Assembly: GCF_015256775.1 (NCBI RefSeq)
Contig: NZ_JABZLM010000006.1
Direction: 5' to 3' (one strand)
Source of the DNA: Solobacterium sp.
GTDB lineage: Bacteria > Bacillota_I > Bacilli_A > Erysipelotrichales > Erysipelotrichaceae
DNA length: 64,000 nt
This document shows positions 22,454-34,856 of this stretch, piece after piece. Each line of letters opens with the position of its first letter. Within the stretch, counting starts at the first letter, position 1. The notes under the pieces were generated by a model. The model did not search any database, had not been told where the DNA came from, and saw nothing but the letters and a program-made list of their open reading frames with translations. The position numbers were made by a program, and so were the translations under genes.

Positions 22454-23689
22454 CTATCTCTTTGTGACGTCTTTTTCTGCATTGATTTCCAATAACTTAT
22501 TTGTTAATTGGTTTTCAATACGACGTAGTTCAAGCTGTGCAGCTTCACGCTTGTCACGGCCTTCCTTCTGGATGTTCAATACTTCATCCAATGTAGAAAT
22601 TAACTGCTCGTTTGTATGTTGTAATGTTTCGATATCAACAATACCACGTTCACTCTCTTTCGCTGTATCAACTGTTGCTTGGTGCAATGTTTCCGCATTC
22701 TTCTTGAGAAGTTCATTCGTCATGTTTGTAACTTCACGTTGTGCTTCCATTGCTTGCTTGGAGTGTGTGATACCTAAAGACAATACAATCTGATTCTTCC
22801 AAAGTGGAATTGTATTCGCAAGCGTACTCTGGATCTTTTCAGTCATTAGCGTATCGTTGTTCTGTACCAAACGAATCTGTGGAGCCATCTGAATGGAAAC
22901 CTGTCTTGTTAGTTCAAGATCATAGAGTTTCTTTTCAAAACGTACACAAGCCTGTTCCAAGTCATTTGCTTTCTGTGCATCTTCAGGTAAGCCTGTCTGC
23001 TTTGCCTTTGCGATTAATGCAGGTAATTCATTTGCACGAACGTCCTTTAACTTCTTACGTCCAGCAATGATATACATGCTTAATTCCTTGATGTTTACTT
23101 GGTTACGTTCATAGAGTTCATCGAGTAAAGCGATATCCTTCAATAATTGAATTTGATGATCTTCTAAGACACCTGCAATCTTTTCAACGTTAGCTTCTGC
23201 CTTGTCATAGCGAGCTCTGAACTCTTCAACCTTTGACTTACCTTTTTCAAATAAGCTTGCGAAGAATCCCTTCTTCTCATCAGAGTCAGATGTATTCTTT
23301 AAATTTACAACAAGATCTGTGAGGATATTTCCAATCTCACCCAAGTCCTTTGTACGTACATTCTGCAATGCTGTATTGGAGAAATCCGTTACTTTCTTCT
23401 GCGCAGCAGAACCGTACTGGAGAACTGTATTGGAATCCATGATATCAATCTTCTGTGAGAAAGTATCGATTGTCTTTTGTTCTGCATCACTGAATTCTGT
23501 TGCCTCAATTGGATCAATAGATTTTAGTTTCTCATCTTCTTCAGCAGCTTTTTTTGCTTCTAAGTCAGCTAACTGCTTTTGGTTTTCTTCTTGAAGCTCA
23601 TCAGGCGTAAGCGTAAGCGTGATTTCTGGCTCTGTTTGTGTCTGTGCTTGTGCCTGTGTTTGTGTTTGATTTGTATTATTTTCGCTCAT
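22454..23689 (-). CDS. TelA/KlaA-like toxic anion resistance family protein
   Basis: 411 aa, mostly helical/coiled-coil, with TelA-like size and composition. The N-terminus has a low-complexity (QT/QA)n tract. Confidence 0.55.
   Translation of the reverse strand: MSENNTNQTQTQAQAQTQTEPEITLTLTPDELQEENQKQLADLEAKKAAEEDEKLKSIDPIEATEFSDAEQKTIDTFSQKIDIMDSNTVLQYGSAAQKKVTDFSNTALQNVRTKDLGEIGNILTDLVVNLKNTSDSDEKKGFFASLFEKGKSKVEEFRARYDKAEANVEKIAGVLEDHQIQLLKDIALLDELYERNQVNIKELSMYIIAGRKKLKDVRANELPALIAKAKQTGLPEDAQKANDLEQACVRFEKKLYDLELTRQVSIQMAPQIRLVQNNDTLMTEKIQSTLANTIPLWKNQIVLSLGITHSKQAMEAQREVTNMTNELLKKNAETLHQATVDTAKESERGIVDIETLQHTNEQLISTLDEVLNIQKEGRDKREAAQLELRRIENQLTNKLLEINAEKDVTKR
23604..23674. repeat. 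simple-sequence tract (gcgtaa x3, then a TG/TGT-rich run) encoding LTLTLT and QTQTQAQAQTQTQ within the TelA-like N-terminus
   Basis: Direct reading of 23606-23674. Confidence 0.6.
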
Positions 23690-23736: not shown

Positions 23737-25653
23737 TTAATTGATATTCATTTTTTTCTCGCGCTGTCTGCGAATCAGATATGTGATAAGTCTGATGATT
23801 CCTAGCAGTGCTGCGATTGCGATAATGATTGCTAGATAGATACGATAGCCAAAGGCTGAAGTGTTTTGGAAGAAGCGTATGAAACTAAAATGCTTATCCT
23901 TAATTTTCTGATCTCTTGTGGTTTGGTACTGCGCTTTCATCTCAGATACTCCATTTACTTTATCCATATCTGAGATATAACGTGTGATTGCTTGCCATTC
24001 TTTTAACTCAGTTCCATCCGCATTGTACAAGATCATATCTGAGAAATCTTTGATTTCATGACCTGAGGCATCATATGTATGAATGTCTAACTGATTAAAT
24101 GTCTTCTTACCTACCGATGGCAACATATTTGCGATATACAAGTTCGTTACCACTGGGTACAACTTATCTTTTTCTACAGGTATATAGAAACCTGCATTCG
24201 TGCGAACTTCCGCATCAACTACATGATTTAAGATAAAGCGGTAATCAGAGTAATGATACTGCATGCCACTAAAGAATAGTTGCCCATCCACCATCATATC
24301 TTTACCCACACTACGGTCTAACTCTGCAACTTTGATTAAATCAGAGCCCTTCATATATACACGAATCAGTGGATATCCAAGTAAGCCATCATTTCCCTTG
24401 CCAAGGTTTACCGCATCGTATACTTCTCCAACTGTGATATCACCCTTTACAAGTCCAGAGCGGATAATGCCCTTTGCGGTTAATCCTATCGTAAATGAAG
24501 TATCTTTGGTTGTTAACTTGCTTGCATATACATAGGCATCCGTAATGAGGTCTGCCATAGAGTTTCCTGTAAAGGCGGAATAATCTTCATACACATCCGT
24601 TAGCGGGAAGTTTGTATACCCAATCGATTGGTCCATTGTATATCCATATTGCTTGAGATAATTTTCATTTACATCCGTTTTATATTCTTGAATCTTTGCG
24701 TTAATTGTTTGATCGACTGGACTTTCTGCCGTAATAGGAATTAATTGATAATCAATCTTCTCTTTTGTCTTTGCGTTGATATCTAACAAACCAAGATACT
24801 TACCAAAACATCCCGCAGATACAATCCATGTTTTATTCTTATGAATCGGTTCTGTTAAAACAGTATGGGTATGACCACTGATAATAACGTCGATACCATC
24901 TACCTTCTCTGCAAGGATTTCATCCTCCGACTTACTAGGGTCTTTATTTGTGCCACTATGAGAAAGGCAAACAATCACTTGTGCACCTTCTTCTTTCAGT
25001 TTCTGAACCATCTTCTTGGCTACTTCGATACGGTCAGGGAAAGTGTTACTACCAGCAGCTGTGTAATAGACACTGTCTTCACCCATTACCCCAAATAAGC
25101 CAATCTTATATCCACCACGTTCAATGATTTTATATTCTGCACCACCGTGATCTTCCCAGGCTTTCTTTAACGCCTGCGATTCCTCATCCTCACCAAATGT
25201 AAGGTTACTACAAAGAATTGGAGGGGTATTGGTAGAACTTTCAATCATCTTTGTAAGAGAGGTGACACCATAATCAAACTCATGGTTTCCAAGTGTTGTC
25301 GCATCATAACCCATCATTCCTAATAGCGATAAATCAGGTGCACTCTTTTCAAATAAGGCATTATAGAAAGTACCCATCGAGAAATCACCCGCATCGACTA
25401 GTACCGTATGATCGTTACGATTTGCCGCAATGGTTCCTGCTAGTTGTGCATATCCACCAATCACTTCTGGTTCACCCGTCTCTGTATTCGTCACGCGATA
25501 GGAATCGATATGATCATGTAAGTCATGCGTAAATAGAATACGTACCGTCGAACTATCATCCGATTTCGATTCTTCATCAGCGTATACAACTGTGGAAATC
25601 GTACTTGTAAGTACGGTCATCACAGTTATAATTTTTAATAAAAATTTATTCAT
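23737..25653 (-). CDS. bifunctional metallophosphatase/5'-nucleotidase (UshA-like), secreted with C-terminal membrane anchor
   Basis: Signal peptide. Calcineurin-like motifs (D-x-H, GDxx, GNHEF). 638 aa with a C-terminal hydrophobic helix plus RRQREKK. Confidence 0.75.
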   Translation of the reverse strand: MNKFLLKIITVMTVLTSTISTVVYADEESKSDDSSTVRILFTHDLHDHIDSYRVTNTETGEPEVIGGYAQLAGTIAANRNDHTVLVDAGDFSMGTFYNALFEKSAPDLSLLGMMGYDATTLGNHEFDYGVTSLTKMIESSTNTPPILCSNLTFGEDEESQALKKAWEDHGGAEYKIIERGGYKIGLFGVMGEDSVYYTAAGSNTFPDRIEVAKKMVQKLKEEGAQVIVCLSHSGTNKDPSKSEDEILAEKVDGIDVIISGHTHTVLTEPIHKNKTWIVSAGCFGKYLGLLDINAKTKEKIDYQLIPITAESPVDQTINAKIQEYKTDVNENYLKQYGYTMDQSIGYTNFPLTDVYEDYSAFTGNSMADLITDAYVYASKLTTKDTSFTIGLTAKGIIRSGLVKGDITVGEVYDAVNLGKGNDGLLGYPLIRVYMKGSDLIKVAELDRSVGKDMMVDGQLFFSGMQYHYSDYRFILNHVVDAEVRTNAGFYIPVEKDKLYPVVTNLYIANMLPSVGKKTFNQLDIHTYDASGHEIKDFSDMILYNADGTELKEWQAITRYISDMDKVNGVSEMKAQYQTTRDQKIKDKHFSFIRFFQNTSAFGYRIYLAIIIAIAALLGIIRLITYLIRRQREKKMNIN

Positions 25654-25750: not shown

Positions 25751-27442
25751 TTATGCAAAGTTATATTCTGTCACAATTGGCTTTCTGCCCTCTGCCTTAT
25801 CTCTATAGTATTCATAGAAACTAATACCTAGATAAGAACCAGAAATATTGTAAACATTTGTATAGCCAAGCTTCTGTAATGCACAGATGACATTGTAACT
25901 ACGTTGTGAAGAACGACAGTGCAAGTATACAGGAACATCTGTAGGAATTTCACTGAGTCTTTCTCTAAACTGAGACATTGGAATATTCACCGCGTTAATC
26001 AGATGTCCCTTTTCAAACTCATCTGGTTCACGAACATCGATAATGCATGCATTATTTTCCACAAGCTCTCTTACTTTGTAAACTGGAACCTGTCTAAATT
26101 TATCATGTAAAAGATTTAGTCCTACAAGAGCTGTGTGATTCACAACATCCTTCGCTGTTGAGTAGTATGGGGAATAGCATAGCTCTAATTCCTTTAAGTC
26201 TTCAAGTGTTGCGTTCATACTAATCATAGCCGCAATCACATCGATTCTCTTATCTACACTACCCTTACCAACTGCCTGCGCTCCTAAGATTCTTCCCGTA
26301 GGCTTTTCAAAAATAAGCTTAAAGAAAAGTGGGTTACTATCTGGCATTAAGCCAACCTTATCTCCTGGGATTGTATACGCAAAGTCATAGTTATAACCGT
26401 GTTGTTGACAATCTTTTTCATTTAAACCTGTGTTTGCTACATTTAAGCCAAAGAGATGGATACAGCTTGAGCCAATAACACCTCTATTACTGTGTGTTTC
26501 ACCAAACATATGGTCAGCAGCAGCTCTTGCCTGTCTTTGTGCAGGTCCTGCAAGTGGAAGTCTAGTCTTATCATTTGTAAGTCTATTTGTAACTTCGATT
26601 GCGTCTCCTACTGCATAAATATCAGGATAGTTTGTCTGGTAGTTATAGTTTACTAAGATTGCCCCTGTCTTACCAAGCTCGATACCACAATCCTTCGCAA
26701 GCTTTGTCTCTGGCGCTACACCGATTGCCATAATCACAGCTTCAGCTGGAAGATGTTCTCCACTAGAGAGAACTACTTCACCTTCACCGACTTCTGTCAC
26801 TGTCTTTCCTAAATAAAGGTTAATACCATTATCAATAATTTCCTTGTGGAGAATCTGTGCCATATCTTCATCAAGAGGTTTCATAACCTGTGGTAAACCT
26901 TCCACTAGATTTACTTCTTTTCCTGCTTCGCGGAAATTCTCAGCCACTTCTAGACCAATAAAACCACCACCAACAACAGTTACCTTATTCACATTCTTCG
27001 CAGCTACATAAGCTTCAATCTTTTTAATGTCTGTAACATTCTTTACTACAAATACATTCTCACGGTCGATACCTTTAATTGAAGCCGGCAAGATTGCGTT
27101 CGCACCTGGTGAAAGTGCTAATTTATCATAACTTTCTGTAAAGCTTTCTCCAGTAACTAAATTCTTTACGACTACTTCTTTCTTGTCTGGATGAATCTCT
27201 GTAACCTCATGCTTTACCAAAGCCTTGATTCTGTACTTATTCCAGAACTCTTCTGGATTCATCAAAACTAGCTTATCGCTGTTATCAACGATTCCACTTA
27301 AAGCGAAAGGTAGGCAGCAGTTAGAGAAGGATACATTCTCTCCTCTTTCAAACATAATAACTTCTGCTGTTTCATCGATTCTTCTAGCTCTTGCGGCAAC
27401 ACTGGCACCACCAGCTACACCACCTATAACTACAATCTTCAT
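25751..27442 (-). CDS. CoA-disulfide reductase with C-terminal rhodanese domain (CoADR-RHD)
   Basis: FAD motif IVVIGGVAGG, an active-site Cys region (SFSNCC), a second NAD(P) motif VTVVGGGFIG, and a C-terminal rhodanese active-site loop CRSSQRS. Confidence 0.8.
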   Translation of the reverse strand: MKIVVIGGVAGGASVAARARRIDETAEVIMFERGENVSFSNCCLPFALSGIVDNSDKLVLMNPEEFWNKYRIKALVKHEVTEIHPDKKEVVVKNLVTGESFTESYDKLALSPGANAILPASIKGIDRENVFVVKNVTDIKKIEAYVAAKNVNKVTVVGGGFIGLEVAENFREAGKEVNLVEGLPQVMKPLDEDMAQILHKEIIDNGINLYLGKTVTEVGEGEVVLSSGEHLPAEAVIMAIGVAPETKLAKDCGIELGKTGAILVNYNYQTNYPDIYAVGDAIEVTNRLTNDKTRLPLAGPAQRQARAAADHMFGETHSNRGVIGSSCIHLFGLNVANTGLNEKDCQQHGYNYDFAYTIPGDKVGLMPDSNPLFFKLIFEKPTGRILGAQAVGKGSVDKRIDVIAAMISMNATLEDLKELELCYSPYYSTAKDVVNHTALVGLNLLHDKFRQVPVYKVRELVENNACIIDVREPDEFEKGHLINAVNIPMSQFRERLSEIPTDVPVYLHCRSSQRSYNVICALQKLGYTNVYNISGSYLGISFYEYYRDKAEGRKPIVTEYNFA

Positions 27443-27457
27443 ACTTTCTCCTTTTCT

Positions 27458-28783
27458 TCACGAAACATTCTTTCTTTTTCTAAATTGATATACCAAAATA
27501 CCACAAACCGTCCATAAAATTAGACTAATGAAAGCTTCCTTTGAAAGTTGTGCGGGAGATCCTGGAAACATTAACAGCACGATAAAACTGGCTGAAATCA
27601 GCGAGCCAAGCACACACAGTACTTTTTCCACCTTAGATTTCGCAAGGGATATACTGATGAAACTTACATACATATACGCTACTGCCGCAAGCACACTTGC
27701 CATATCTACAATGTAGATAATTACACGTCTACCAACAAAGGCTCCAATTAAACTAATCGCACAGACAAAGAGAATAGCATATGGTTGTACACCTTTCTCG
27801 TTTTTGATGCTGTATTTTGGGCCTAAATGCTTTCTTTGGGATAGACTTGCAATCAGTTTACTCGACGCAATCATAAAACCATTGATTCCACCAATCACAG
27901 CAGCTGCCAAAGCAATTAACATGATATAGAATCCAGCTTTACCTAAGTGTTGAATCACCGCATCCGCGACAGCCCAATGCGTCTTCATAGCTGCTTCAGG
28001 TGAAAAGCCTAATCCAGCTATAGTATTTAATGCTCCATAAATGAATATACCAATCAATACCGAAATCCCTACGAGTAACGTAGATTTTTCAGGTTTAAAG
28101 CCAAGTTCTTCTGAAACCTGTGGTACTACATCAAACCCTACAAATAAGAAGGGAGCTATCGCTACGATCTTTGAAATCTCACTGAACGAAAAGCGGTAGT
28201 TTTCCACATAGTTTTGATGAAAGGCCTGCAAATCACTTCTCATAAACATCAAACATAGAAGCCCTGATACAATGACAGCCAAAAGAATGCTCATGATATT
28301 TTGCACCTTCGTGCTAATTTTTAACCCTTGAATATTGATGTAACCAAACAAAATAATGACAGCAGACATCACAAGTACATCCGTTAGATAGATAGGATAT
28401 CCCGAAATGGAATATAGATAGAAGAAATCCATCTTCGCACCAAATATCTCACGTAACAGAAGAACAAATGCGCCTGCATTAAGTGGAACCATGCTTAAAT
28501 AACAAAGACTTAGGGACCAGCCCACTACAAAGCCATGTACCTTGCCTAAATGATTTAAAGCATAGGTAAACTCTCCACCATCTTCTCTATGATTCTCGAG
28601 CATGATGTGATAGCCATTTTGTATCACCATGATAAAGACACCACCAATCAAAAGCCCGATAAAGGTATTGATTACACCTGCTTCTTTTAAAAACTTTGTA
28701 CCTGGAAGAGTAAAGGAACCCCAGCCTATAATGGCTCCAATTACTAATCCAAGAACATCGATATATCTTAATTTTTTATCCAT
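27458..28783 (-). CDS. APC-superfamily amino acid/polyamine permease
   Basis: 441 aa with about 12 TM helices and an N-terminal GxxxGxG-like APC motif. Overlaps the neighbouring genes by a few nt. Confidence 0.6.
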   Translation of the reverse strand: MDKKLRYIDVLGLVIGAIIGWGSFTLPGTKFLKEAGVINTFIGLLIGGVFIMVIQNGYHIMLENHREDGGEFTYALNHLGKVHGFVVGWSLSLCYLSMVPLNAGAFVLLLREIFGAKMDFFYLYSISGYPIYLTDVLVMSAVIILFGYINIQGLKISTKVQNIMSILLAVIVSGLLCLMFMRSDLQAFHQNYVENYRFSFSEISKIVAIAPFLFVGFDVVPQVSEELGFKPEKSTLLVGISVLIGIFIYGALNTIAGLGFSPEAAMKTHWAVADAVIQHLGKAGFYIMLIALAAAVIGGINGFMIASSKLIASLSQRKHLGPKYSIKNEKGVQPYAILFVCAISLIGAFVGRRVIIYIVDMASVLAAVAYMYVSFISISLAKSKVEKVLCVLGSLISASFIVLLMFPGSPAQLSKEAFISLILWTVCGILVYQFRKRKNVS

Positions 28784-30086
28784 CTAAGCGAACTTTTTTA
28801 GCAATGATATTTCCTACAACACCACCGACTACTAAGACTACAAGGAAGATCCATCCGGATAGTGAGAAGTTTGCGATTGGAGTATATAGAGCTCCTACGT
28901 TACATCCGTTAGAAAGTCTTGTACCAAATCCCATCGCAAAGCCGCCAATTGCATAGAATAATGCCTGCTTTGGATTCATCTTCCAACTTGACTTGCAGAA
29001 GGAGATGAAGTTATTTGATGTAAGCATATATACAAATGTACCTAATACGATACCTACGTTCTGCACATTGATTGGGTGTTCAAAGAAAGGCATTTGGTAA
29101 GGACCTGCAGCCCCCTTTGTAAATTCAACAATTGTTTCTACCTTAACACCAAACAACATGAGTAACTTACCAAACCAGAATCCGTAAGGTGTACTTGCAC
29201 CCCAACCTGCTTTTGTAACACCCATGAGTAATACGAATACTGCAGAGATGACAAGAACAGCCGTTCTTAAACTCCAAGGACGTGCGAAGATCTTCACATA
29301 ACCTTCTTCACTGCATGGACAAACAGCTTCTGTTTCATCAAGAGACTTCTTTTCAGCAGCTAACTGTACCGTTTCACTACCAATGCCAAAGTAAGTTCCT
29401 GCTTCCTTTCTCTTCTTTTCATAGAGATAACTTAACTTCACTACGATCAAGCAAAGAATACCAGTTAGAATTAACGCACCTAAGTAACCCTGTAAACCAT
29501 CAAACGCAAATAAGTCTGGGAAGTATACACCATTCTTATCACCAAACTTGATTAAAGAATCCTGTACCCAGCTTGCTGTATTCTGAATTGGGAAGCCTAC
29601 AAATACACCAATACAGAAGAATAGTAAGGTAACAATACCTCTAGGAAATGCCGCAACTAAGTCTGTTAGTACACCTGATGCACAACATGACGCAAACGCC
29701 ATACCAAATCCGAAGAGAAGACCTCCTAAGATCAAACCTAAGTTAATTGGGTTTACCCAAAGATCAAACTGGGAAACATCCGCATTATATAGGACTGCTG
29801 TACTAACTGCAGCCGAAACGAAAAACATAAACATCAAGGCTCTCATGAGCTTTGTAGAACCACCCTTATAGGCACGATTTACACTTCCCGCAAAGCCCAT
29901 AAAGCCTCTCGCTAAAGCGTAACCTAAAATTGCGCCCATCATTAATCTGAAATACAGCATTGAGGAACTTAATCCAAACATGCCGAATAAGATTACAATT
30001 GCCAACAATATAAAGCCAGCAATTCTCTCCATTTGTTTCATACTTTTAATTTCTCCTTTTTCTTCCATGATAAAACCATCCCCCAT
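28776..30086 (-). CDS. YeeE/YedE family sulfur-compound (thiosulfate-type) transporter
   Basis: Two internal repeats, each with a conserved Cys-containing loop (ASCCASGV and LSNGCNVG). About 400 aa polytopic. The true start may be the internal MKQMER with an AAAGGAG RBS at about 30041. Confidence 0.65.
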   Translation of the reverse strand: MGDGFIMEEKGEIKSMKQMERIAGFILLAIVILFGMFGLSSSMLYFRLMMGAILGYALARGFMGFAGSVNRAYKGGSTKLMRALMFMFFVSAAVSTAVLYNADVSQFDLWVNPINLGLILGGLLFGFGMAFASCCASGVLTDLVAAFPRGIVTLLFFCIGVFVGFPIQNTASWVQDSLIKFGDKNGVYFPDLFAFDGLQGYLGALILTGILCLIVVKLSYLYEKKRKEAGTYFGIGSETVQLAAEKKSLDETEAVCPCSEEGYVKIFARPWSLRTAVLVISAVFVLLMGVTKAGWGASTPYGFWFGKLLMLFGVKVETIVEFTKGAAGPYQMPFFEHPINVQNVGIVLGTFVYMLTSNNFISFCKSSWKMNPKQALFYAIGGFAMGFGTRLSNGCNVGALYTPIANFSLSGWIFLVVLVVGGVVGNIIAKKVRLDG

Positions 30087-30320: not shown

Positions 30321-31403
30321 TTATCCTTCTAGATAATATGCATATGCCTTATCAGCACGTCCAGCTGTATGTGAAGCACCTTCATATCTTGTTACGAAGA
30401 TTGTAGCTGCCTCAGCAGCGCCTTCTGCTGAATCTGCAACATTCTGTAATCCAACAAGAGTACTGTTATACGCACCTGTTAACTCATGTGTTAAGAAAGC
30501 TAACTGTCCTTCAACCGTTGTATAGTCGAGGCCATTATTTGCACAATAGTTAACTAAGTTTGTATATCTACCGCCACCCCATTGGCATAAACCGTAATAG
30601 GATGAACCAGCAGTTGGATTAAACTTGGATTCTTGCCACATATTCGCCAAAACACCACAAGCAGCTGCCTTAGACAAACCAAGTGTACCCGTTAGGTAAG
30701 AATAGATTGTCTGATAATTACCAGAAGTATCTACTGGTCCAGTGGACACATACGCTCTTGTGACATTAATTGTATAAGAAGCAGTAGAAACATTCCCATT
30801 CTTATCTGTTGCAGTTACAGTCGCTGTATAAGTTCCTGCTTTTGAGATATCACCATCAACCGCAACTGTATAGTTACCCTTACCATTTTCCGTTGAAGCA
30901 GTTAAACTACCATCTATTGGATCGATGACTGAGGTAATATTTGAGAAAAGGTCATACGAACTTCCTGCTTTAATATCAACTTTACTAGCAGCTAAAGTAA
31001 TCTCTGCAGGTTTCGTGTCCACAACATTTACACTCGCTGTAAATGTCTTGGAATTTGTTAAACCAAACTTAGACTCTTTACCAGATAAAATCAGTTTAAC
31101 TGGATAGGATCCAATTGCACTAGCATCAATCTGTCCATCAATCTTTAAATCACCAGTATGTTCCGCAACGAGTGTATGTACATCAAAGGTACTTCCATAC
31201 TCAGCTGTCGTAATACCACTCATGTTAAGTCGAAGTGAATCATATAACCTAGCCTGCGATAATAACATCTGTTTGTTCATATAGTCTCTTCTTGCGAGCA
31301 CATAACTAAGTGCAGTACCACCTACCATGCAAGCAGCCAAACCAAACGCAAGAAATTTCTTTGTCGTCATTTTTAATCTATGTTTCATATGAAAATGATA
31401 CAC
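30321..31403 (-). CDS. membrane-anchored extracellular protein with Ig-like (Big) repeats and a C-terminal lysozyme-like (phage tail lysozyme-type) domain
   Basis: N-terminal TM anchor. Thr/Ser-rich beta repeats (TATVTATDKNGNVSTASYTINV). A C-terminal segment LANMWQESKFNP...GLCQWGGGR resembles glycoside-hydrolase or lysozyme-like catalytic motifs. Confidence 0.5.
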   Translation of the reverse strand: MYHFHMKHRLKMTTKKFLAFGLAACMVGGTALSYVLARRDYMNKQMLLSQARLYDSLRLNMSGITTAEYGSTFDVHTLVAEHTGDLKIDGQIDASAIGSYPVKLILSGKESKFGLTNSKTFTASVNVVDTKPAEITLAASKVDIKAGSSYDLFSNITSVIDPIDGSLTASTENGKGNYTVAVDGDISKAGTYTATVTATDKNGNVSTASYTINVTRAYVSTGPVDTSGNYQTIYSYLTGTLGLSKAAACGVLANMWQESKFNPTAGSSYYGLCQWGGGRYTNLVNYCANNGLDYTTVEGQLAFLTHELTGAYNSTLVGLQNVADSAEGAAEAATIFVTRYEGASHTAGRADKAYAYYLEG

Positions 31404-31611
31404 GAAAATTATTTAAAACGTCAAATTTAGCGCATAAAATACACAATTTTCACACAAAATTAACACAATATTTATTGTGCTAAAACATGCATGCATATTA
31501 TATGTAAATTTCTTTCAACAATTTACTTGCATATCCAACTATTTTATTGATAAACGTGCATGCATGTAAACATATAAAAAGTGCTAAACTATCGCCCAGC
31601 ACTTTTTAATA

Positions 31612-33756
31612 CTATTTCTGTGTCATCTTTAATAAATCTTCTAGCGAAGGAGAATCACTTGCTTTTGGCGGTTGAACCTTAATTGTGAAATCAAAGTCAG
31701 CCTCAATAAGCTCACTCATATCGCTATCTGGATTCGATACTAATCTTGTGGATTGACGTAAGATTGCGTCTTCAATCATATTACGTGCAAGTCTACCGTT
31801 ACCAGCTTCCATAGCATTGATACTCTGTACTTCATTGAAATAAGCGGTTAGCTTATCCTTAACAGCTTCATCAATATGATAACCTTTACCCTTTGCTTGT
31901 AGACAAGCAATCTGATAGAGTTCTTCACCTGTGTAGTCCTTGAAGTTGATGATATTTGGGAAACGTGACTTTAGACCTGAGTTAGACTCTAGGAATACAG
32001 ACATTTCCTTCTTATATCCCGCTAAGATAACGATTAAGTTATCACGGTTATCTTCCATTGCCTTTACAAGTGTATCGATACACTCTAATCCAAACGCATC
32101 ATCTTTTCCACGATGTAGAGAATACGCTTCATCGATAAATAGCACACCACCAATCGCAGACTTGATTACCGACATCGTTAATGGAGCTGTCTGACCAACA
32201 TATTGCGCTACTAAGTCCGATCTAGATACTTCTACAAGCTGTCCTTGTGTTAACGCACCAATGGCCTTCATGTAACGAGAAATCAATCTCGCAATCGTTG
32301 TTTTACCAGTACCAGGATTGCCTGTAAAGATCATATGTTTAGAAAGTGTTGCTGTCTTCATGCCCTGCTCACGACGCTTTTGTTGCATCGCAACCAAGGA
32401 TTGCAAGGAAGATATATATGCCTTCACTTCATCCAGACCGATAATCTCACTTAATTCACGATTTACTTCTTCAAGTTCCTCACTACTATTGCGTGAGCGA
32501 CTCATCTGAATATCTTCTTCTTTGATTGTAGCAACAGGAATATCATTCTTCACTGTCATCTTGATTTCTTCCATATTTCCCAGGGAATGGTCTAATACTG
32601 CCTGTCCTAGAGATACATAGAAATCATAGAAGTTAGAACTAATAGAGGCAGCACCTAAATCCTTATTAAAGTGTTGAATAACCCATTCCTGAACAGAATC
32701 TTCAACTACTAATTTAATCTTTAAGTTTTCTTCCGCCTTCTTAATCAAATTTGCAGTTTGAACCTGAACAATTGAACGAATACTTTCATCATCTAACTTC
32801 TTTAAGGTAACAGTATCCAACACATGGTACATAAAATCTGCCCCAAAGGCATCTTGAACCTTTGATACACTACCTGTTGTCATAAATACAAGATACTTAC
32901 CACCAACGCTTAAAGTATCAACACTGTCCTTTACAAGACCAGTTTGATTTTCTATAAGTACACCCTTATTTAATACATAACGTTTGTTTAATACACAGCT
33001 ACCCGTCGTAACAAGTGAACTAATCATACGTAAGAATGCAGGGAAACCATTTTCAAAATTCTCAAAGCAGATAACAGAACCGTTGCCAGAGATAGCTTCA
33101 TATAAGTCCTGTAAGAAAATCTGTTCCTGTGCTGAAGATGTATAACGACTCATATCAATCGTATATACTTCATCACTGATAAATACTTGACGTTCATATA
33201 AAGAACGAGCCATCTGAGTAACTGCTTCATGTCTACCAGAACCTACAGGCCCAGAAACAAGAATAACATTCTTCGCCTTTCCTGCTTCTTCCCCCATTAA
33301 ATATGGTCTTCTAAATGCATTTACCATCTGATGGATTGCATCTTTTTGTCCCATCACCTTGGAGATAATCACATTGTAGATATCATCGAATAACTTCTGT
33401 GAGTTGAATTCCTTCTTCTCAACAGGTTTTTGTTCAACTTCAGTTAAACCATAGTCACGCTTTAAATCACGTTCTAATACATCCATACTCATTGCGGAGA
33501 TATCTAAAGGCTCATCCTTTTTCTGTAGCGCCGCATGCATATCCTCTAAATCTTTTTGTTGTTTACGCAAAATCGCATTTAGTTCCTGCATTGCTTGGTC
33601 TGGCTGTTTTAGGATGTTTAAGTTTTGACTTTGTTCATTACTATCAATACTTAATGTGATTTGTTCAGACGCATCTGTAGATTCATAAGCACGCTTTTTG
33701 CCTAAGACCTCATTCCAAAGTCTTTCTTTTTCCTCTGTTCTACGATCTTTCGACAT
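31612..33756 (-). CDS. tandem AAA+ ATPase: degenerate N-proximal AAA module plus C-terminal CbxX/CfxQ/SpoVK-type AAA module, with a coiled-coil N-terminus
   Basis: The first P-loop is GPVGSGRHEA, with Arg in place of the canonical Lys. The second module has a canonical GNPGTGKTT and Walker B VLFIDEAYSL, with CbxX-like spacing (LAGY..). 714 aa. Confidence 0.7.
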   Translation of the reverse strand: MSKDRRTEEKERLWNEVLGKKRAYESTDASEQITLSIDSNEQSQNLNILKQPDQAMQELNAILRKQQKDLEDMHAALQKKDEPLDISAMSMDVLERDLKRDYGLTEVEQKPVEKKEFNSQKLFDDIYNVIISKVMGQKDAIHQMVNAFRRPYLMGEEAGKAKNVILVSGPVGSGRHEAVTQMARSLYERQVFISDEVYTIDMSRYTSSAQEQIFLQDLYEAISGNGSVICFENFENGFPAFLRMISSLVTTGSCVLNKRYVLNKGVLIENQTGLVKDSVDTLSVGGKYLVFMTTGSVSKVQDAFGADFMYHVLDTVTLKKLDDESIRSIVQVQTANLIKKAEENLKIKLVVEDSVQEWVIQHFNKDLGAASISSNFYDFYVSLGQAVLDHSLGNMEEIKMTVKNDIPVATIKEEDIQMSRSRNSSEELEEVNRELSEIIGLDEVKAYISSLQSLVAMQQKRREQGMKTATLSKHMIFTGNPGTGKTTIARLISRYMKAIGALTQGQLVEVSRSDLVAQYVGQTAPLTMSVIKSAIGGVLFIDEAYSLHRGKDDAFGLECIDTLVKAMEDNRDNLIVILAGYKKEMSVFLESNSGLKSRFPNIINFKDYTGEELYQIACLQAKGKGYHIDEAVKDKLTAYFNEVQSINAMEAGNGRLARNMIEDAILRQSTRLVSNPDSDMSELIEADFDFTIKVQPPKASDSPSLEDLLKMTQK

Positions 33757-34721
33757 TACTCGTCTCCTTTATGTCCAACTTCAATCATACCATCACTTGT
33801 TAAGCCATCCTTCTTTAATACAGCATTCAAAGTAGCCATATCAGCAGATAGATTAATAAAGTCCTGGTCTGTATAACTTGCAATCATATTCTTCATCGCA
33901 TCATTGATTAATACAACCGTCTTTCCTAACTTCTCTTTTGTTTCTTTATAGTTAGGGTCAGTCTGTGCCGTCTGAAGAGCGTCGTATTGTTTTAGAATAC
34001 GCACAAGGATTGGCAAATAATATTCATACAACTTCTTAAGTTTTCCCTTAGATGCAGGGAAAGTTGTTTCTAACTTCTGTGCCTGTTTTAAAAGTGCACA
34101 TGTTTCAAATAATCCATTTGAGATTTCCTCATCCGGAATTGCGTCATTGAGTGCGTTAATTTGATCAATATAGCTCTGTGCACTAGAAGATGGTTCTTCA
34201 ACTTTTACTTCTTCCTTCTTCACATTTGTTGGTGTAGCTTGTACATCGATGACATCTGTATTTTGATAATCATCTGCTTGCTTAGAAACTTCTCTTAAGA
34301 TCTGTTCATAAGATTCTGGATAGTTCGCACCAAATACATTGAGTCCACTTACCAAGATACCATTGCGGTATACATCCAAATTAGAAAGTGACTTATATTC
34401 ACCATTACGTACACGTAATTCAATTCCTGTACTAACATTTAAGGCAGTATGCGTTCTAAACCACTTGCGTAAGAAGATGTTATTCTTTGCCATCTGTGAT
34501 GCGGAAATATTTGAAGCGCGATTTCCCGCATAGTATGTAGATGAGGAATAGCTAGCATATGGGTTTGATCTTTGTTCGTTTCTCTTTGAGGCATTTACCG
34601 CTGCCATTACAATCGCAAATACGATACCAACAATAATTAACATAGGTATAAATGTTCCTCCTCCTAGAAAAAATATTAAGAAGAATATCCAACCAAAATC
34701 AGAGTTCTTTCTGTTTTTCAT
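33756..34721 (-). CDS. 2TM membrane protein with a helical C-terminal domain (possibly XpaC/'5-bromo-4-chloroindolyl phosphate hydrolysis'-like)
   Basis: An N-terminal pair of TM helices (WIFFLIFFLGGGTFIPMLIIVGIVFAIVMAAV), then a soluble domain. Its stop overlaps the start of the AAA+ gene at 33756. The XpaC assignment is tentative. Confidence 0.45.
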   Translation of the reverse strand: MKNRKNSDFGWIFFLIFFLGGGTFIPMLIIVGIVFAIVMAAVNASKRNEQRSNPYASYSSSTYYAGNRASNISASQMAKNNIFLRKWFRTHTALNVSTGIELRVRNGEYKSLSNLDVYRNGILVSGLNVFGANYPESYEQILREVSKQADDYQNTDVIDVQATPTNVKKEEVKVEEPSSSAQSYIDQINALNDAIPDEEISNGLFETCALLKQAQKLETTFPASKGKLKKLYEYYLPILVRILKQYDALQTAQTDPNYKETKEKLGKTVVLINDAMKNMIASYTDQDFINLSADMATLNAVLKKDGLTSDGMIEVGHKGDE

Positions 34722-34856
34722 TTTTATAACCTCTCACCAGTGAATTATAGCATATTACACGATTTTTTATATCTCTTCAATCGCATTCTATATACTTGAT
34801 TTCATTTACGAATCAAAGAAAAAATGCTAGTGTTAAAACCGAGAATACGAGGTTGT

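What the first reader, a model, noticed from the sequence alone, without database searches (positions are those of the whole stretch)
31612..34721. Candidate undescribed two-gene system: 2TM membrane protein translationally coupled to a tandem-AAA+ protein (degenerate P-loop plus CbxX/SpoVK-type module)
The membrane protein's stop and the ATPase's start overlap at 33756. The 714-aa ATPase has an N-terminal coiled coil. Its first AAA-like module has GSGRHE in the Walker A position, so it is likely non-catalytic. Its second module is a fully canonical CbxX/CfxQ-type AAA (GNPGTGKTT...LFIDEAY). This architecture is reminiscent of EccA/SpoVK-type remodelling ATPases, but it is paired with a small 2TM protein whose C-terminal helical domain may be XpaC-like. 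I know of no characterised system with this pairing. Candidate roles are a membrane-associated protein remodelling or quality-control module, or a phage-defence or stress module.
Basis: partly seen in the sequence, partly recalled or inferred. Interest (0 to 1): 0.7.

Follow-up and report, generated by a model that had tools for sequence, protein, structure and literature searches.

The report
XpaC-like membrane protein with dedicated AAA+ chaperone
A Solobacterium genome carries a conserved gene pair (a long relative of the envelope-stress membrane protein XpaC, and a two-module AAA+ ATPase whose first module is catalytically dead) that in related bacteria sits in one operon with the TelA resistance protein, so the poorly understood XpaC/TelA stress module appears here to have its own ATP-driven remodelling chaperone.

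Summary
Two minus-strand genes, 34721..33756 (321 aa) and 33756..31612 (714 aa), overlap by one base (TAATG).

- **ATPase.** Module 1 has a ClpB-NBD2 fold with degenerate motifs (GSGRHE; Walker B "FEN"). Module 2 is a canonical CbbX/SpoVK-type AAA+.
- **Membrane protein.** It has a hydrophobic hairpin, a middle alpha/beta domain and a C-terminal helical domain. That helical domain is homologous to XpaC (PF10112), which shows only at profile level.
- **Conservation.** The pair is adjacent in 62 of 62 related Erysipelotrichaceae loci and in three of seven more distant lineages sampled.
- **Not a self-contained two-gene system.** TelA follows within 7.2 kb in 25 of 34 loci that have 9 kb of downstream sequence, and directly follows the ATPase in the simplest operons. 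One distant locus also carries a canonical XpaC-TelA pair right after the ATPase. In this window telA (23689..22454) lies about 8 kb downstream, behind inserted genes.
- **What was excluded.** There is no T7SS or sporulation context. PADLOC gave nothing for the membrane protein and only weak generic AAA hits for the ATPase.

xpaC-telA is a known envelope-stress, daptomycin- and nisin-resistance cluster of unknown mechanism. My best reading is a new variant of that module with a dedicated SpoVK-clade chaperone docked at the membrane. The client, probably TelA or XpaC assemblies, is inferred and not shown.

The parts
34722..34823 (-). Intergenic region upstream of the membrane-protein gene, divergent from a chromate-transporter gene. 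It holds -10-like boxes (TGCTATAAT, TAATAT) and an RBS-like GAGAGG.
   Evidence: Sequence read. The automatic promoter scan listed nothing here, so the promoter is inferred by eye only.
33756..34721 (-). Gene for the 321-aa long XpaC paralogue, a membrane protein
   Evidence: ORF. 251 homologues in Erysipelotrichaceae. PF10112 hit in 20 of 20 family members. Profile versus canonical XpaC gives E 3.8e-20.
34590..34697 (-). Hydrophobic hairpin, residues 9-44 (FGWIFFLIFFLGGGTFIPMLIIVGIVFAIVMAAVNA), with K/R on both flanks. Both ends are probably cytoplasmic.
   Evidence: Hydropathy and flank charges. Model helices 10-19 and 25-47. Topology is inferred from the positive-inside rule.
34254..34502 (-). 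Middle alpha/beta domain, residues 74-156. It is found in the AAA-linked long XpaC paralogues and is absent from the canonical 217-aa XpaC. It is a candidate docking domain.
   Evidence: Model pLDDT ~83-87 with a helix, four strands and helices. Highly conserved motifs LDVYR and RRYPxSY. Present in L076_363, L078_323 and L079_320, but the canonical XpaC aligns only to residues 181-305.
33807..34181 (-). C-terminal helical domain, residues 181-305, homologous to XpaC / PF10112
   Evidence: Pfam stretch 164-289. BLASTP to canonical XpaC gives 27% identity, E 7e-14. Fold searches return only generic helical bundles.
31612..33756 (-). Gene for the 714-aa two-module AAA+ ATPase. Its start overlaps the upstream stop by one base.
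33685..33735 (-). N-terminal peptide motif EEKERLWNEVLGKKRAY. It is conserved only in the XpaC-linked ATPases and is a candidate partner-recognition peptide.
   Evidence: E9, K10, L13 and R22 are invariant. The motif is present in all XpaC-linked forms and replaced by other motifs in the stand-alone and multi-module forms.
32497..33402 (-). Module 1: ClpB-NBD2-like pseudo-ATPase plus lid plus a small beta domain. Walker A is GPVGSGRHE (33226..33252) and Walker B is VICFENFE (33052..33075).
   Evidence: NCBIfam ClpB/ClpA/ClpV partial hits. PDB hits to ClpC and ClpB. Foldseek to ClpB NBD2, TMt ~0.7. Motif states hold across the whole family: G-x-x-G-[ST]-G-[RK]-H and h-h-h-F-[ED]-[NH].
31687..32484 (-). 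Module 2: canonical SpoVK/CbbX/EccA-clade AAA+.
- Walker A GNPGTGKTT, 32296..32322
- pore loop AQYVGQTA, 32185..32208
- Walker B VLFIDEAY, 32122..32145
- ILAGY, 32014..32028
- NSGLKSRF, 31960..31983
- GNGRLARN, 31780..31803
   Evidence: All of these motif residues are invariant across 39 homologues.
31575..31608 (-). Terminator-like hairpin with a 15-pair stem, four bases after the ATPase stop. In this genome the pair is therefore probably a bicistronic unit.
   Evidence: with the sequence. This is a consensus match only; function was not tested.
22454..23689 (-). telA (411 aa), the recurrent third partner of the pair. In this genome it is displaced about 8 kb downstream on the same strand.
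   Evidence: Pfam TelA 1.3e-120. 70-74% identical to the TelA proteins that follow the pair in L001 and L004. Linkage statistics.
30321..31403 (-). Accessory neighbour: a membrane-anchored protein with an Ig-like domain and a Phage_lysozyme2 domain. It recurs between the ATPase and TelA in a minority of loci.
   Evidence: Pfam PF18013 5.3e-28. Present in L001-3, L037, L047, L058 and L070.
23737..25653 (-). Accessory neighbour: a 5'-nucleotidase/metallophosphoesterase directly upstream of telA. It recurs in about 30 related loci.
   Evidence: Pfam hits. tblastn across the loci.

Best explanation
The pair is the membrane-proximal half of a cell-envelope stress module built on the known XpaC-TelA system.

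**Components.**
- The 321-aa protein is a long paralogue of XpaC. It is anchored by an N-terminal hydrophobic hairpin, and its middle alpha/beta domain and XpaC-type helical domain face the cytoplasm.
- The translationally coupled 714-aa protein is a dedicated chaperone of the SpoVK/CbbX/EccA AAA+ clade.
- Its C-terminal module has all the catalytic and pore-loop residues, and most likely forms the ATP-hydrolysing hexameric ring.
- Its N-terminal ClpB-NBD2-like module has lost the Walker A Thr and the Walker B catalytic Glu (and, in most but not all members, the Walker A Lys, R in this protein). It most likely acts as a non-catalytic second tier or as a platform for client and partner binding.

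**Proposed mechanism.**
- The ATPase is recruited to the membrane by the XpaC paralogue. The candidate contacts are the paralogue-specific middle domain and the ATPase's subfamily-specific N-terminal EKERLW..VLGKKR peptide.
- There it uses ATP to remodel a narrow client. That client is most probably TelA and/or assemblies of the XpaC helical domain, which it would assemble, disassemble or activate during membrane or cell-wall stress.

**Shown.** The gene pair, the domain identities, the motif states, conservation of the adjacency, and linkage to TelA and to canonical XpaC.

**Inferred.** Hexamer formation, membrane recruitment, the contact surfaces, the identity of the client, and stress induction in this organism.
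For: **Adjacency.**
- The ATPase follows the membrane gene in 62 of 62 Erysipelotrichaceae loci with at least 1.3 kb downstream. The gap is -101 to +12 nt in 57 of them.
- The same long XpaC paralogue lies upstream of ATPases only 44-47% identical in L076, L078 and L079.

**Link to TelA and XpaC.**
- TelA is contiguous with the ATPase in L051, L053, L054, L064-L069 and L076. It lies within 7.2 kb in 25 of 34 loci that have 9 kb of downstream sequence.
- L078 has long-XpaC, a small protein, the AAA, a canonical XpaC (PF10112), then TelA.
- telA is in the window on the same strand.

**XpaC homology.**

**Clade precedent.** The SpoVK/CbbX/EccA clade is described as dedicated chaperones with narrow clients and variable N-terminal recruiting domains, several of them acting on envelope processes (PMC11513918).

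**Catalytic state.** Module 2 has invariant catalytic and pore-loop residues. Module 1 is degenerate yet strongly conserved.

**Subfamily markers.** N-terminal peptide motifs track the partner type. XpaC-linked ATPases group together in a crude NJ tree.

**Known biology of xpaC-telA.** It is an envelope-stress unit:
- core sigma-W regulon in B. subtilis (PMC3498285);
- LiaR-upregulated in E. faecium and CesSR-linked in L. lactis (PMC10269926);
- daptomycin binding and phospholipid microdomain phenotypes (PMC6811118);
- nisin sensitivity in Listeria (PMC12791056).
Against: - No physical interaction, expression or phenotype data exist for this pair.
- In this window a terminator-like hairpin follows the ATPase and telA is 8 kb away, so co-transcription with telA is not expected here.
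- 9 of 34 loci with 9 kb of downstream sequence show no TelA within range. L079 has the pair without TelA nearby.
- Four of seven sampled distant single-module relatives (L075 Dielma, L077, L080, L081) have neither XpaC nor TelA next to them. The ATPase family as a whole is therefore not tied to XpaC/TelA.
- The membrane-protein model is only moderate (pLDDT 67), and fold searches gave nothing specific.
- No multimer prediction could be run.
Confidence: 0.5

Rival explanations
1. The ATPase is a dedicated chaperone for cytoplasmic or membrane-bound cell-wall enzymes, as SpoVK is for MurG and EccA1 for mycolic-acid enzymes. The XpaC paralogue would only tether it to the membrane. TelA would be a co-regulated neighbour and not the client.
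For: - There is precedent within the same AAA+ clade (PMC11513918).
- Envelope-related neighbours recur: a Phage_lysozyme2 peptidoglycan hydrolase and a 5'-nucleotidase lie between the ATPase and TelA in many loci.
- The XpaC phenotypes concern membrane lipid organisation and daptomycin binding.
Against: - The lysozyme-domain gene is present in only a minority of loci, and the 5'-nucleotidase is absent from the simplest operons.
- Both proteins are predicted to act outside the cytoplasm, so they are unlikely clients.
- The only partners that stay with the ATPase across deep divergence are the XpaC paralogue and TelA.
Confidence: 0.2
2. The pair is an anti-phage or abortive-infection system. 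A membrane effector would be controlled by an AAA+ sensor or switch.
For: - The ATPase gives weak PADLOC hits: DolB 6.5e-13, and IetA/IteA at about 30 bits.
- Multi-module relatives with the same N-module lie in a mobilisable element next to AbiEii and HEPN-ApeA genes (L072/L073).
- From memory, not tested here: tellurite-resistance (ter) loci have historically been linked to phage and colicin resistance.
Against: - PADLOC gives no hit for the membrane protein. The ATPase hits are far weaker than its SpoVK/CbbX matches (299 and 228 bits) and cover only the generic AAA core.
- The pair is kept in one lineage across at least 62 species-level genomes, with no mobile-element genes beside it in the window and no GC anomaly.
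- It is linked to a stress-response gene (telA), not to defence genes.
Confidence: 0.1
3. It is an EccA-type secretion chaperone or a true SpoVK sporulation protein.
For: The top NCBIfam matches are spore_V_K (1.6e-89) and T7SS_EccA (4.7e-73).
Against: - Both scores are far below the equivalog cut-offs: 299 against 423, and 247 against 467.
- There is no TPR or beta-helix N-domain and no short SpoVK NTD. A ClpB-NBD2-like module stands in that position.
- The Pfam-scanned ORFs flanking the pair in the window and all called genes of loci L001-L005 include no T7SS (EssC, WXG100) or sporulation genes.
Confidence: 0.03

Closest known systems
xpaC-telA (xpaC-yaaN) envelope-stress cluster of Bacillota (B. 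subtilis, E. faecium, L. monocytogenes lmo1966-67, L. lactis llmg1115)
   Same: - A membrane protein with an N-terminal hydrophobic hairpin and a PF10112-type helical domain is genetically linked to TelA (PF05816).
- The known cluster is stress-regulated and affects resistance to daptomycin, nisin and tellurite.
   Different: - The known cluster is described as two genes with no ATPase.
- Here the XpaC-type protein is about 100 aa longer and has an extra alpha/beta domain.
- A 714-aa AAA+ gene is inserted between it and telA.
- In this genome telA has been moved about 8 kb away.
SpoVK / CbbX / EccA higher-order clade of classical AAA+ ATPases
   Same: - Module 2 is 41% identical to CbbX and superposes on it.
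- It has the GY sensor-1 signature, the N-x-G-L-x-S-R motif and the sensor-2 GNGR..RN motif.
- The clade consists of dedicated chaperones with variable N-terminal recruiting domains.
   Different: - The score is below the cut-off of every named equivalog.
- The N-terminal region is a ClpB-NBD2-like pseudo-ATPase, which is not among the N-domains listed for the clade in the main text of PMC11513918.
- The residue four positions after the conserved Asn is Lys, not Arg.
- The partners are XpaC and TelA, not RuBisCO, T7SS substrates or MurG.
Hsp100/Clp second nucleotide-binding domain (ClpB, ClpA, ClpC NBD2; Skd3)
   Same: Module 1 has the same fold, including the D2-small lid.
   Different: - The Walker A Thr (His in all members) and the Walker B catalytic Glu are replaced; the Walker A Lys is replaced by Arg in most members, including this protein, but kept in some.
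- There is no NBD1, no M-domain and no ClpP-binding loop.
- Sequence identity is only 17-18%.
Membrane-repair polymers and their AAA+ remodellers (PspA/Vipp1/ESCRT-III with Vps4; LiaH-LiaI)
   Same: This is a functional analogy only. It compares a membrane-anchored or membrane-associated helical stress protein plus a dedicated AAA+ ATPase within an envelope-stress context.
   Different: - No sequence or fold match to PspA, Snf7 or the Vps4 MIT domain was found.
- Polymerisation of TelA or XpaC has not been shown.

Membership tests
XpaC / PF10112 (Halogen_Hydrol) | Match to the Pfam model above the gathering score | tested here: not met
   The window protein scores 16.6 bits (E 0.008) against a cut-off of 29.8.
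XpaC / PF10112 (Halogen_Hydrol) | Homology of the C-terminal helical domain at family or profile level | tested here: met
   20 of 20 aligned homologues hit PF10112, best E 3e-7. The family profile against a canonical PF10112 protein (L078, 217 aa) gives E 3.8e-20. BLASTP gives 27% identity, E 7e-14, over residues 181-305.
XpaC / PF10112 (Halogen_Hydrol) | N-terminal pair of hydrophobic helices followed by a cytoplasmic helical domain | tested here: met
   Hydrophobic stretch at residues 9-44 with K/R flanks. Model. The orientation is inferred.
xpaC-telA operon | telA immediately downstream in the same operon | tested here: inconclusive
   Met in relatives, with the ATPase lying between the two genes (L051, L053, L054, L064-69, L076). 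In the window telA is 8 kb downstream and a terminator-like hairpin lies in between.
SpoVK-EccA-CbbX AAA+ clade | GY signature in the sensor-1 region | tested here: met
   ILAGY at residues 577-581. G580 and Y581 are invariant. The criterion comes from PMC11513918.
SpoVK-EccA-CbbX AAA+ clade | Conserved Asn four residues upstream of the first Arg finger | tested here: inconclusive
   In NSGLKSRF, N592 is invariant, but position +4 is an invariant Lys (K596) and the Arg is at +6 (R598).
SpoVK-EccA-CbbX AAA+ clade | Second Arg finger / sensor-2 retained | tested here: met
   GNGRLARN at residues 652-659. R655 and R658 are invariant.
SpoVK proper (TIGR02881) | Score above the equivalog cut-off, a short beta-rich NTD and a sporulation context | tested here: not met
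   299.4 bits against a cut-off of 422.95. The N-terminus is a 420-aa region with a ClpB-NBD2-like module. There are no sporulation neighbours.
EccA (TIGR03922) | Score above the cut-off, a TPR N-domain and T7SS neighbours | tested here: not met
   246.6 bits against 466.65, and the match covers only the AAA module. No T7SS genes are nearby.
CbbX (TIGR02880) | Score above the cut-off and a RuBisCO context | tested here: not met
   228.3 bits against 459.25. No RuBisCO genes appear in the window ORFs that were scanned.
Hsp100/Clp ATPases | Catalytic Walker A GK[ST] and Walker B DE in NBD2, plus NBD1 | tested here: not met
   The motifs are GSGRH and FEN. There is no NBD1. NCBIfam scores are 38 bits against cut-offs of about 1000.
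Known anti-phage defence systems (PADLOC-DB 2.0) | Both proteins match models of one system | tested here: not met
   The membrane protein has 0 hits. The ATPase has only weak generic AAA hits: DolB at 46.7 bits and IetA at about 30 bits.
PspA/ESCRT-III plus Vps4-type remodelling pair | PspA/Snf7-fold polymer subunit and an MIT-domain AAA+ | tested here: not met
   No Pfam PspA, Snf7 or MIT hits. Fold searches of the membrane protein gave only generic helical bundles. The TelA fold was not modelled.

The most novel reading that the evidence does not exclude
XpaC-type proteins and TelA form ATP-remodelled assemblies on the cytoplasmic face of the membrane, functionally analogous to ESCRT-III/PspA with Vps4. 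In this reading the long XpaC paralogue nucleates or anchors the assembly. TelA is the soluble, polymerising or membrane-coating subunit. The pseudo-NBD2/SpoVK ATPase recycles it. The wider ATPase family (the N-module plus one to four SpoVK modules, each subfamily with its own N-terminal peptide and its own small membrane partners) would then be a previously unrecognised class of membrane-directed AAA+ remodellers.
Probability: 0.15. Interest if true: 0.8.

Novelty: new variant of a known kind. Interest (0 to 1): 0.5.

Why it matters
- **An open question becomes testable.** TelA and XpaC are widespread in Bacillota. They are induced by the main envelope-stress regulons and influence tolerance to daptomycin, nisin and tellurite, yet their biochemical function is unknown. 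A lineage in which the module has acquired its own dedicated AAA+ chaperone implies that XpaC and/or TelA exist in states that need ATP-driven remodelling, such as assemblies or inactive conformers. That points to specific experiments: a substrate trap, interaction mapping and imaging of assemblies.
- **A new AAA+ architecture.** The work defines a family with a catalytically dead ClpB-NBD2-like module fused to one to four SpoVK-type modules. The profile search found about 127 representatives (clusters at 50% identity) at E below 1e-30. I did not find this architecture described in the papers I could search.
- **Limits.** The organisms are non-model gut and oral Erysipelotrichaceae, and nothing here has been shown experimentally.

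Tried and rejected
**Searches that led nowhere.**
- The fold library afdb50 was not available.
- PDB sequence searches found nothing for TelA or for the XpaC-like family.
- The third homologue search, using an N-module alignment, returned only fragments.
- The 2012 comparative-genomics paper on Ter/TelA systems (PMC4104200) is not held. I could not check whether it mentions an AAA+ link.
- The SpoVK paper's supplements are not held.

**Ideas considered and rejected.**
- The N-terminal 118 residues of the window ATPase are not a fused copy of the small protein encoded between long-XpaC and the AAA gene in L064-69, L078 and L079. No significant similarity was found.
- T7SS EccA, true SpoVK and CbbX membership are rejected on scores and context.
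- A PADLOC-known defence system is rejected.
- A horizontally acquired island is rejected. GC is 0.36-0.38, the same as the rest of the window, and there are no mobile-element genes nearby.

Full report
**1. What is in the sequence**

On the minus strand there are two ORFs: 34721..33756 (321 aa) and 33756..31612 (714 aa). The junction reads gagTAATGtcg, so the stop and start codons share base 33756.

About 100 bp of non-coding DNA lies upstream, divergent from a chromate-transporter gene. It carries -10-like boxes and an RBS-like GAGAGG, which I read by eye; the automatic scan lists nothing there. Four bases after the ATPase stop there is a hairpin with a 15-pair stem, at 31608..31575. In this genome the two genes therefore look like a bicistronic unit.

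GC content (0.36-0.38) does not differ from the rest of the window. The window comes from a Solobacterium species: loci from Solobacterium MAGs are 97-99% identical.

**2. The ATPase**

*Module 2.*
- Residues 475-605 match Pfam AAA (8e-19), and residues 630-688 match AAA_lid_6.
- The best named families are spore_V_K (299 bits), EccA (247 bits) and CbbX (228 bits). All are well below their equivalog cut-offs of 423, 467 and 459 bits, and all cover only residues ~414-684.
- The closest solved structure is CbbX (E 3e-55). The AlphaFold model (pLDDT 71) superposes on it with TMt 0.70-0.75 at 41% identity.
- The catalytic motifs are intact and invariant in 39 homologues: Walker A GNPGTGKTT, pore loop AQYVGQTA, Walker B VLFIDEAY, the clade signature ILAGY, NSGLKSRF and sensor-2 GNGRLARN.
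- These fit the criteria that PMC11513918 gives for the SpoVK-EccA-CbbX clade. The one departure is a Lys four residues after the conserved Asn, where an Arg is expected.

*Module 1.*
- Residues ~119-390 align weakly to the second nucleotide-binding domain of ClpB, ClpA and ClpC and fold like ClpB NBD2 (TMt ~0.7, 17-18% identity).
- The Walker A position holds GPVGSGRHE and the Walker B position holds VICFENFE.
- Across the family these positions read G-x-x-G-[ST]-G-[RK]-H and h-h-h-F-[ED]-[NH]. The P-loop Thr and the catalytic Glu are always missing, and the Lys is often replaced.
- The module is nevertheless very strongly conserved. It looks like a pseudo-ATPase kept for a structural or binding role.

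*N-terminal region.* Residues 1-118 are mostly low-confidence, with a long helix at 52-79. They begin with an invariant peptide, EKERLW.EVLGKKR.

**3. The membrane protein**

- Residues 9-44 are one hydrophobic stretch, broken by GGGT..P into two helices, with Lys/Arg on both flanks. By the positive-inside rule this is a hairpin with both ends in the cytoplasm. That topology is an inference.
- A well-modelled alpha/beta domain follows at residues 74-156 (pLDDT ~85). After a disordered, charged linker comes a helical domain at residues 181-304.
- On its own the protein only grazes Pfam PF10112 (XpaC): E 0.008, below the gathering score.
- All 20 aligned homologues hit that family, best E 3e-7.
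- The family profile hits a bona fide 217-aa PF10112 protein at E 3.8e-20. BLASTP aligns residues 181-305 to it at 27% identity, E 7e-14.
- The middle domain is absent from canonical XpaC.
- Fold searches gave nothing specific.

**4. Conservation and context**

*The close clade.*
- A pattern scan of one genome per species returned 65 loci. By lineage they are all Erysipelotrichaceae (Solobacterium, Bulleidia, Galactobacillus and unnamed MAGs), although a few bins carry other labels.
- In all 62 loci with at least 1.3 kb of sequence after the membrane gene, the ATPase gene follows it.
- The gap is -101 to +12 nt in 57 of these loci. The larger overlaps are probably start-codon artefacts.
- The gap is about 420 nt in five loci, where a further 146-aa gene intervenes.

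*TelA.*
- The key extra finding is TelA (PF05816). It directly follows the ATPase in L051, L053, L054 and L064-L069.
- It lies within 7.2 kb in 25 of 34 loci that have 9 kb of downstream sequence. A 5'-nucleotidase and/or a Phage_lysozyme2-domain gene usually lies in between.
- The window has the same order on the same strand: XpaC paralogue, ATPase, lysozyme-domain protein (31403..30321), three inserted genes, then the 5'-nucleotidase (25653..23737) and telA (23689..22454; Pfam 1.3e-120).
- The three inserted genes are a YeeE-like sulphur transporter, an amino-acid permease and a CoA-disulfide-reductase/rhodanese.

*Beyond this clade.* A profile of module 1 finds 127 cluster representatives at E below 1e-30. 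Their architectures are the N-module plus one, two, three or four SpoVK-type modules. I sampled seven single-module representatives that are 37-47% identical to the window protein.

| Locus | Arrangement |
|---|---|
| L076 | long-XpaC, AAA, TelA |
| L078 | long-XpaC, 191-aa protein, AAA, canonical XpaC, TelA |
| L079 | long-XpaC, 176-aa protein, AAA |
| L075 (Dielma fastidiosa), L077, L080, L081 | ATPase alone, no XpaC or TelA |

- In a crude NJ tree the XpaC-linked ATPases group together.
- Only the XpaC-linked ATPases have the EKERLW..GKKR N-terminal peptide. Stand-alone and multi-module forms each have a different N-terminal motif.
- The roughly 1200-aa three-module forms are instead followed by two other conserved small membrane proteins. 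In one case they sit in a mobilisable element beside AbiEii and HEPN genes.

**5. What is known about the partners**

- xpaC-yaaN (telA) is a two-gene operon of the core sigma-W regulon in B. subtilis (PMC3498285).
- xpaC is up-regulated by activated LiaR in E. faecium and is tied to CesSR-mediated resistance in L. lactis (PMC10269926).
- In E. faecium, deleting xpaC lowers the daptomycin MIC eight-fold and redistributes phospholipid microdomains, but only when telA is intact (PMC6811118).
- In Listeria, disrupting the telA homologue raises sensitivity to nisin and tellurite (PMC12791056).
- No mechanism is known for either protein, and neither has a solved structure.
- I found no paper that links XpaC or TelA to an AAA+ ATPase.
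- The SpoVK paper describes this AAA+ clade as dedicated chaperones with narrow clients and variable N-terminal recruiting domains. Several of them act on envelope processes.

**6. Most likely mechanism**

The pair is an XpaC/TelA envelope-stress module that has acquired its own chaperone.

- *Shown:* the gene pair, the domains, the motif states, the conserved adjacency, and the linkage to TelA and to canonical XpaC.
- *Inferred:* the ATPase forms a hexamer whose SpoVK-type ring hydrolyses ATP and engages a client through the Tyr519 pore loop.
- *Inferred:* the dead NBD2-like tier and the N-terminal peptide bind partners.
- *Inferred:* the XpaC paralogue's cytoplasmic domains recruit the ATPase to the membrane. 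The paralogue-specific middle domain is the most likely contact.
- *Inferred:* the client is TelA and/or XpaC-domain assemblies.

I put about 0.5 on this overall reading. I am much more confident in the statement that this is an XpaC/TelA-linked module, and much less confident about the identity of the client.

**7. Rivals**

- A chaperone for wall-synthesis enzymes, tethered by XpaC: 0.2. There is precedent in the clade, but no such enzyme is co-conserved.
- An anti-phage system: 0.1. The support is only weak generic PADLOC hits and the context of the multi-module cousins. Against it stand lineage-wide vertical conservation and the TelA link.
- EccA or true SpoVK: 0.03. This is contradicted by the scores, the architecture and the context.

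**8. Verdict**

Novelty: new variant of a known kind. Interest is moderate, at 0.5. The finding offers a concrete handle on the long-unknown function of TelA and XpaC, and it defines an undescribed AAA+ architecture. Everything mechanistic remains inference, and the hosts are non-model organisms.

Noticed in passing
L071 8001-12620; L072 and L073 6890-12731: Relatives of about 1200 aa carry the same dead NBD2-like N-module plus three SpoVK modules. They are followed by two conserved small membrane proteins: 132/149 aa at 50% identity, and 212/219 aa at 58% identity. In L072/L073 the block lies in a mobilisable element with a relaxase, AbiEii, HEPN-ApeA and DUF4236, which is a possible defence or conflict context.
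   Followed up: partly
window 30321..31403 (-): This gene encodes a membrane-anchored protein with an Ig-like domain and a Phage_lysozyme2 (PF18013) domain. It has its own promoter-like sites. It recurs between the ATPase and TelA in L001-3, L037, L047, L058 and L070, but not in most loci.
   Followed up: partly
window 23737..25653 (-): A 5'-nucleotidase/metallophosphoesterase gene lies directly upstream of telA. The same arrangement recurs in about 30 related loci, which suggests a conserved 5'-NT-telA sub-unit.
   Followed up: partly
window 25751..30086 (-): Three genes separate the pair from telA: a CoA-disulfide-reductase/rhodanese fusion, an amino-acid permease and a YeeE-like sulphur transporter. 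This spacing is seen only in the window's own species group (L011-L013). It looks like an insertion into the ancestral cluster.
   Followed up: no
L064 6406-6846; L065 5069-5509; L078 5416-5991; L079 5471-6001: Deeper-branching loci encode an extra soluble protein of 146-191 aa between the long XpaC paralogue and the ATPase. L078_191 and L079_176 are homologous (E 1e-16). Their similarity to the 146-aa proteins is not significant, and they show no similarity to the window ATPase N-terminus.
   Followed up: partly
L075, L080 (Dielma fastidiosa and a relative): Stand-alone single-module members of the ATPase family sit in a different conserved context (YqeC or an amidohydrolase, DUF3783, MgtE, CNNM). 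They carry a different N-terminal motif, MKxDxDxIL.
   Followed up: no
L078 9924-11389: In this distant locus TelA is followed by a 180-aa membrane protein and a TPM_phosphatase-domain protein. This extends the cluster with another family that, from memory, is often seen with membrane-stress genes.
   Followed up: no
L011 3226-5095: In one Solobacterium MAG the tblastn matches to the ATPase are broken: the best hit to the N part covers only residues 1-143 and the hit to the C part is partial. The gene length is unchanged and there are no N runs. This is probably frameshifts in a draft assembly and not a real pseudogene.
   Followed up: partly
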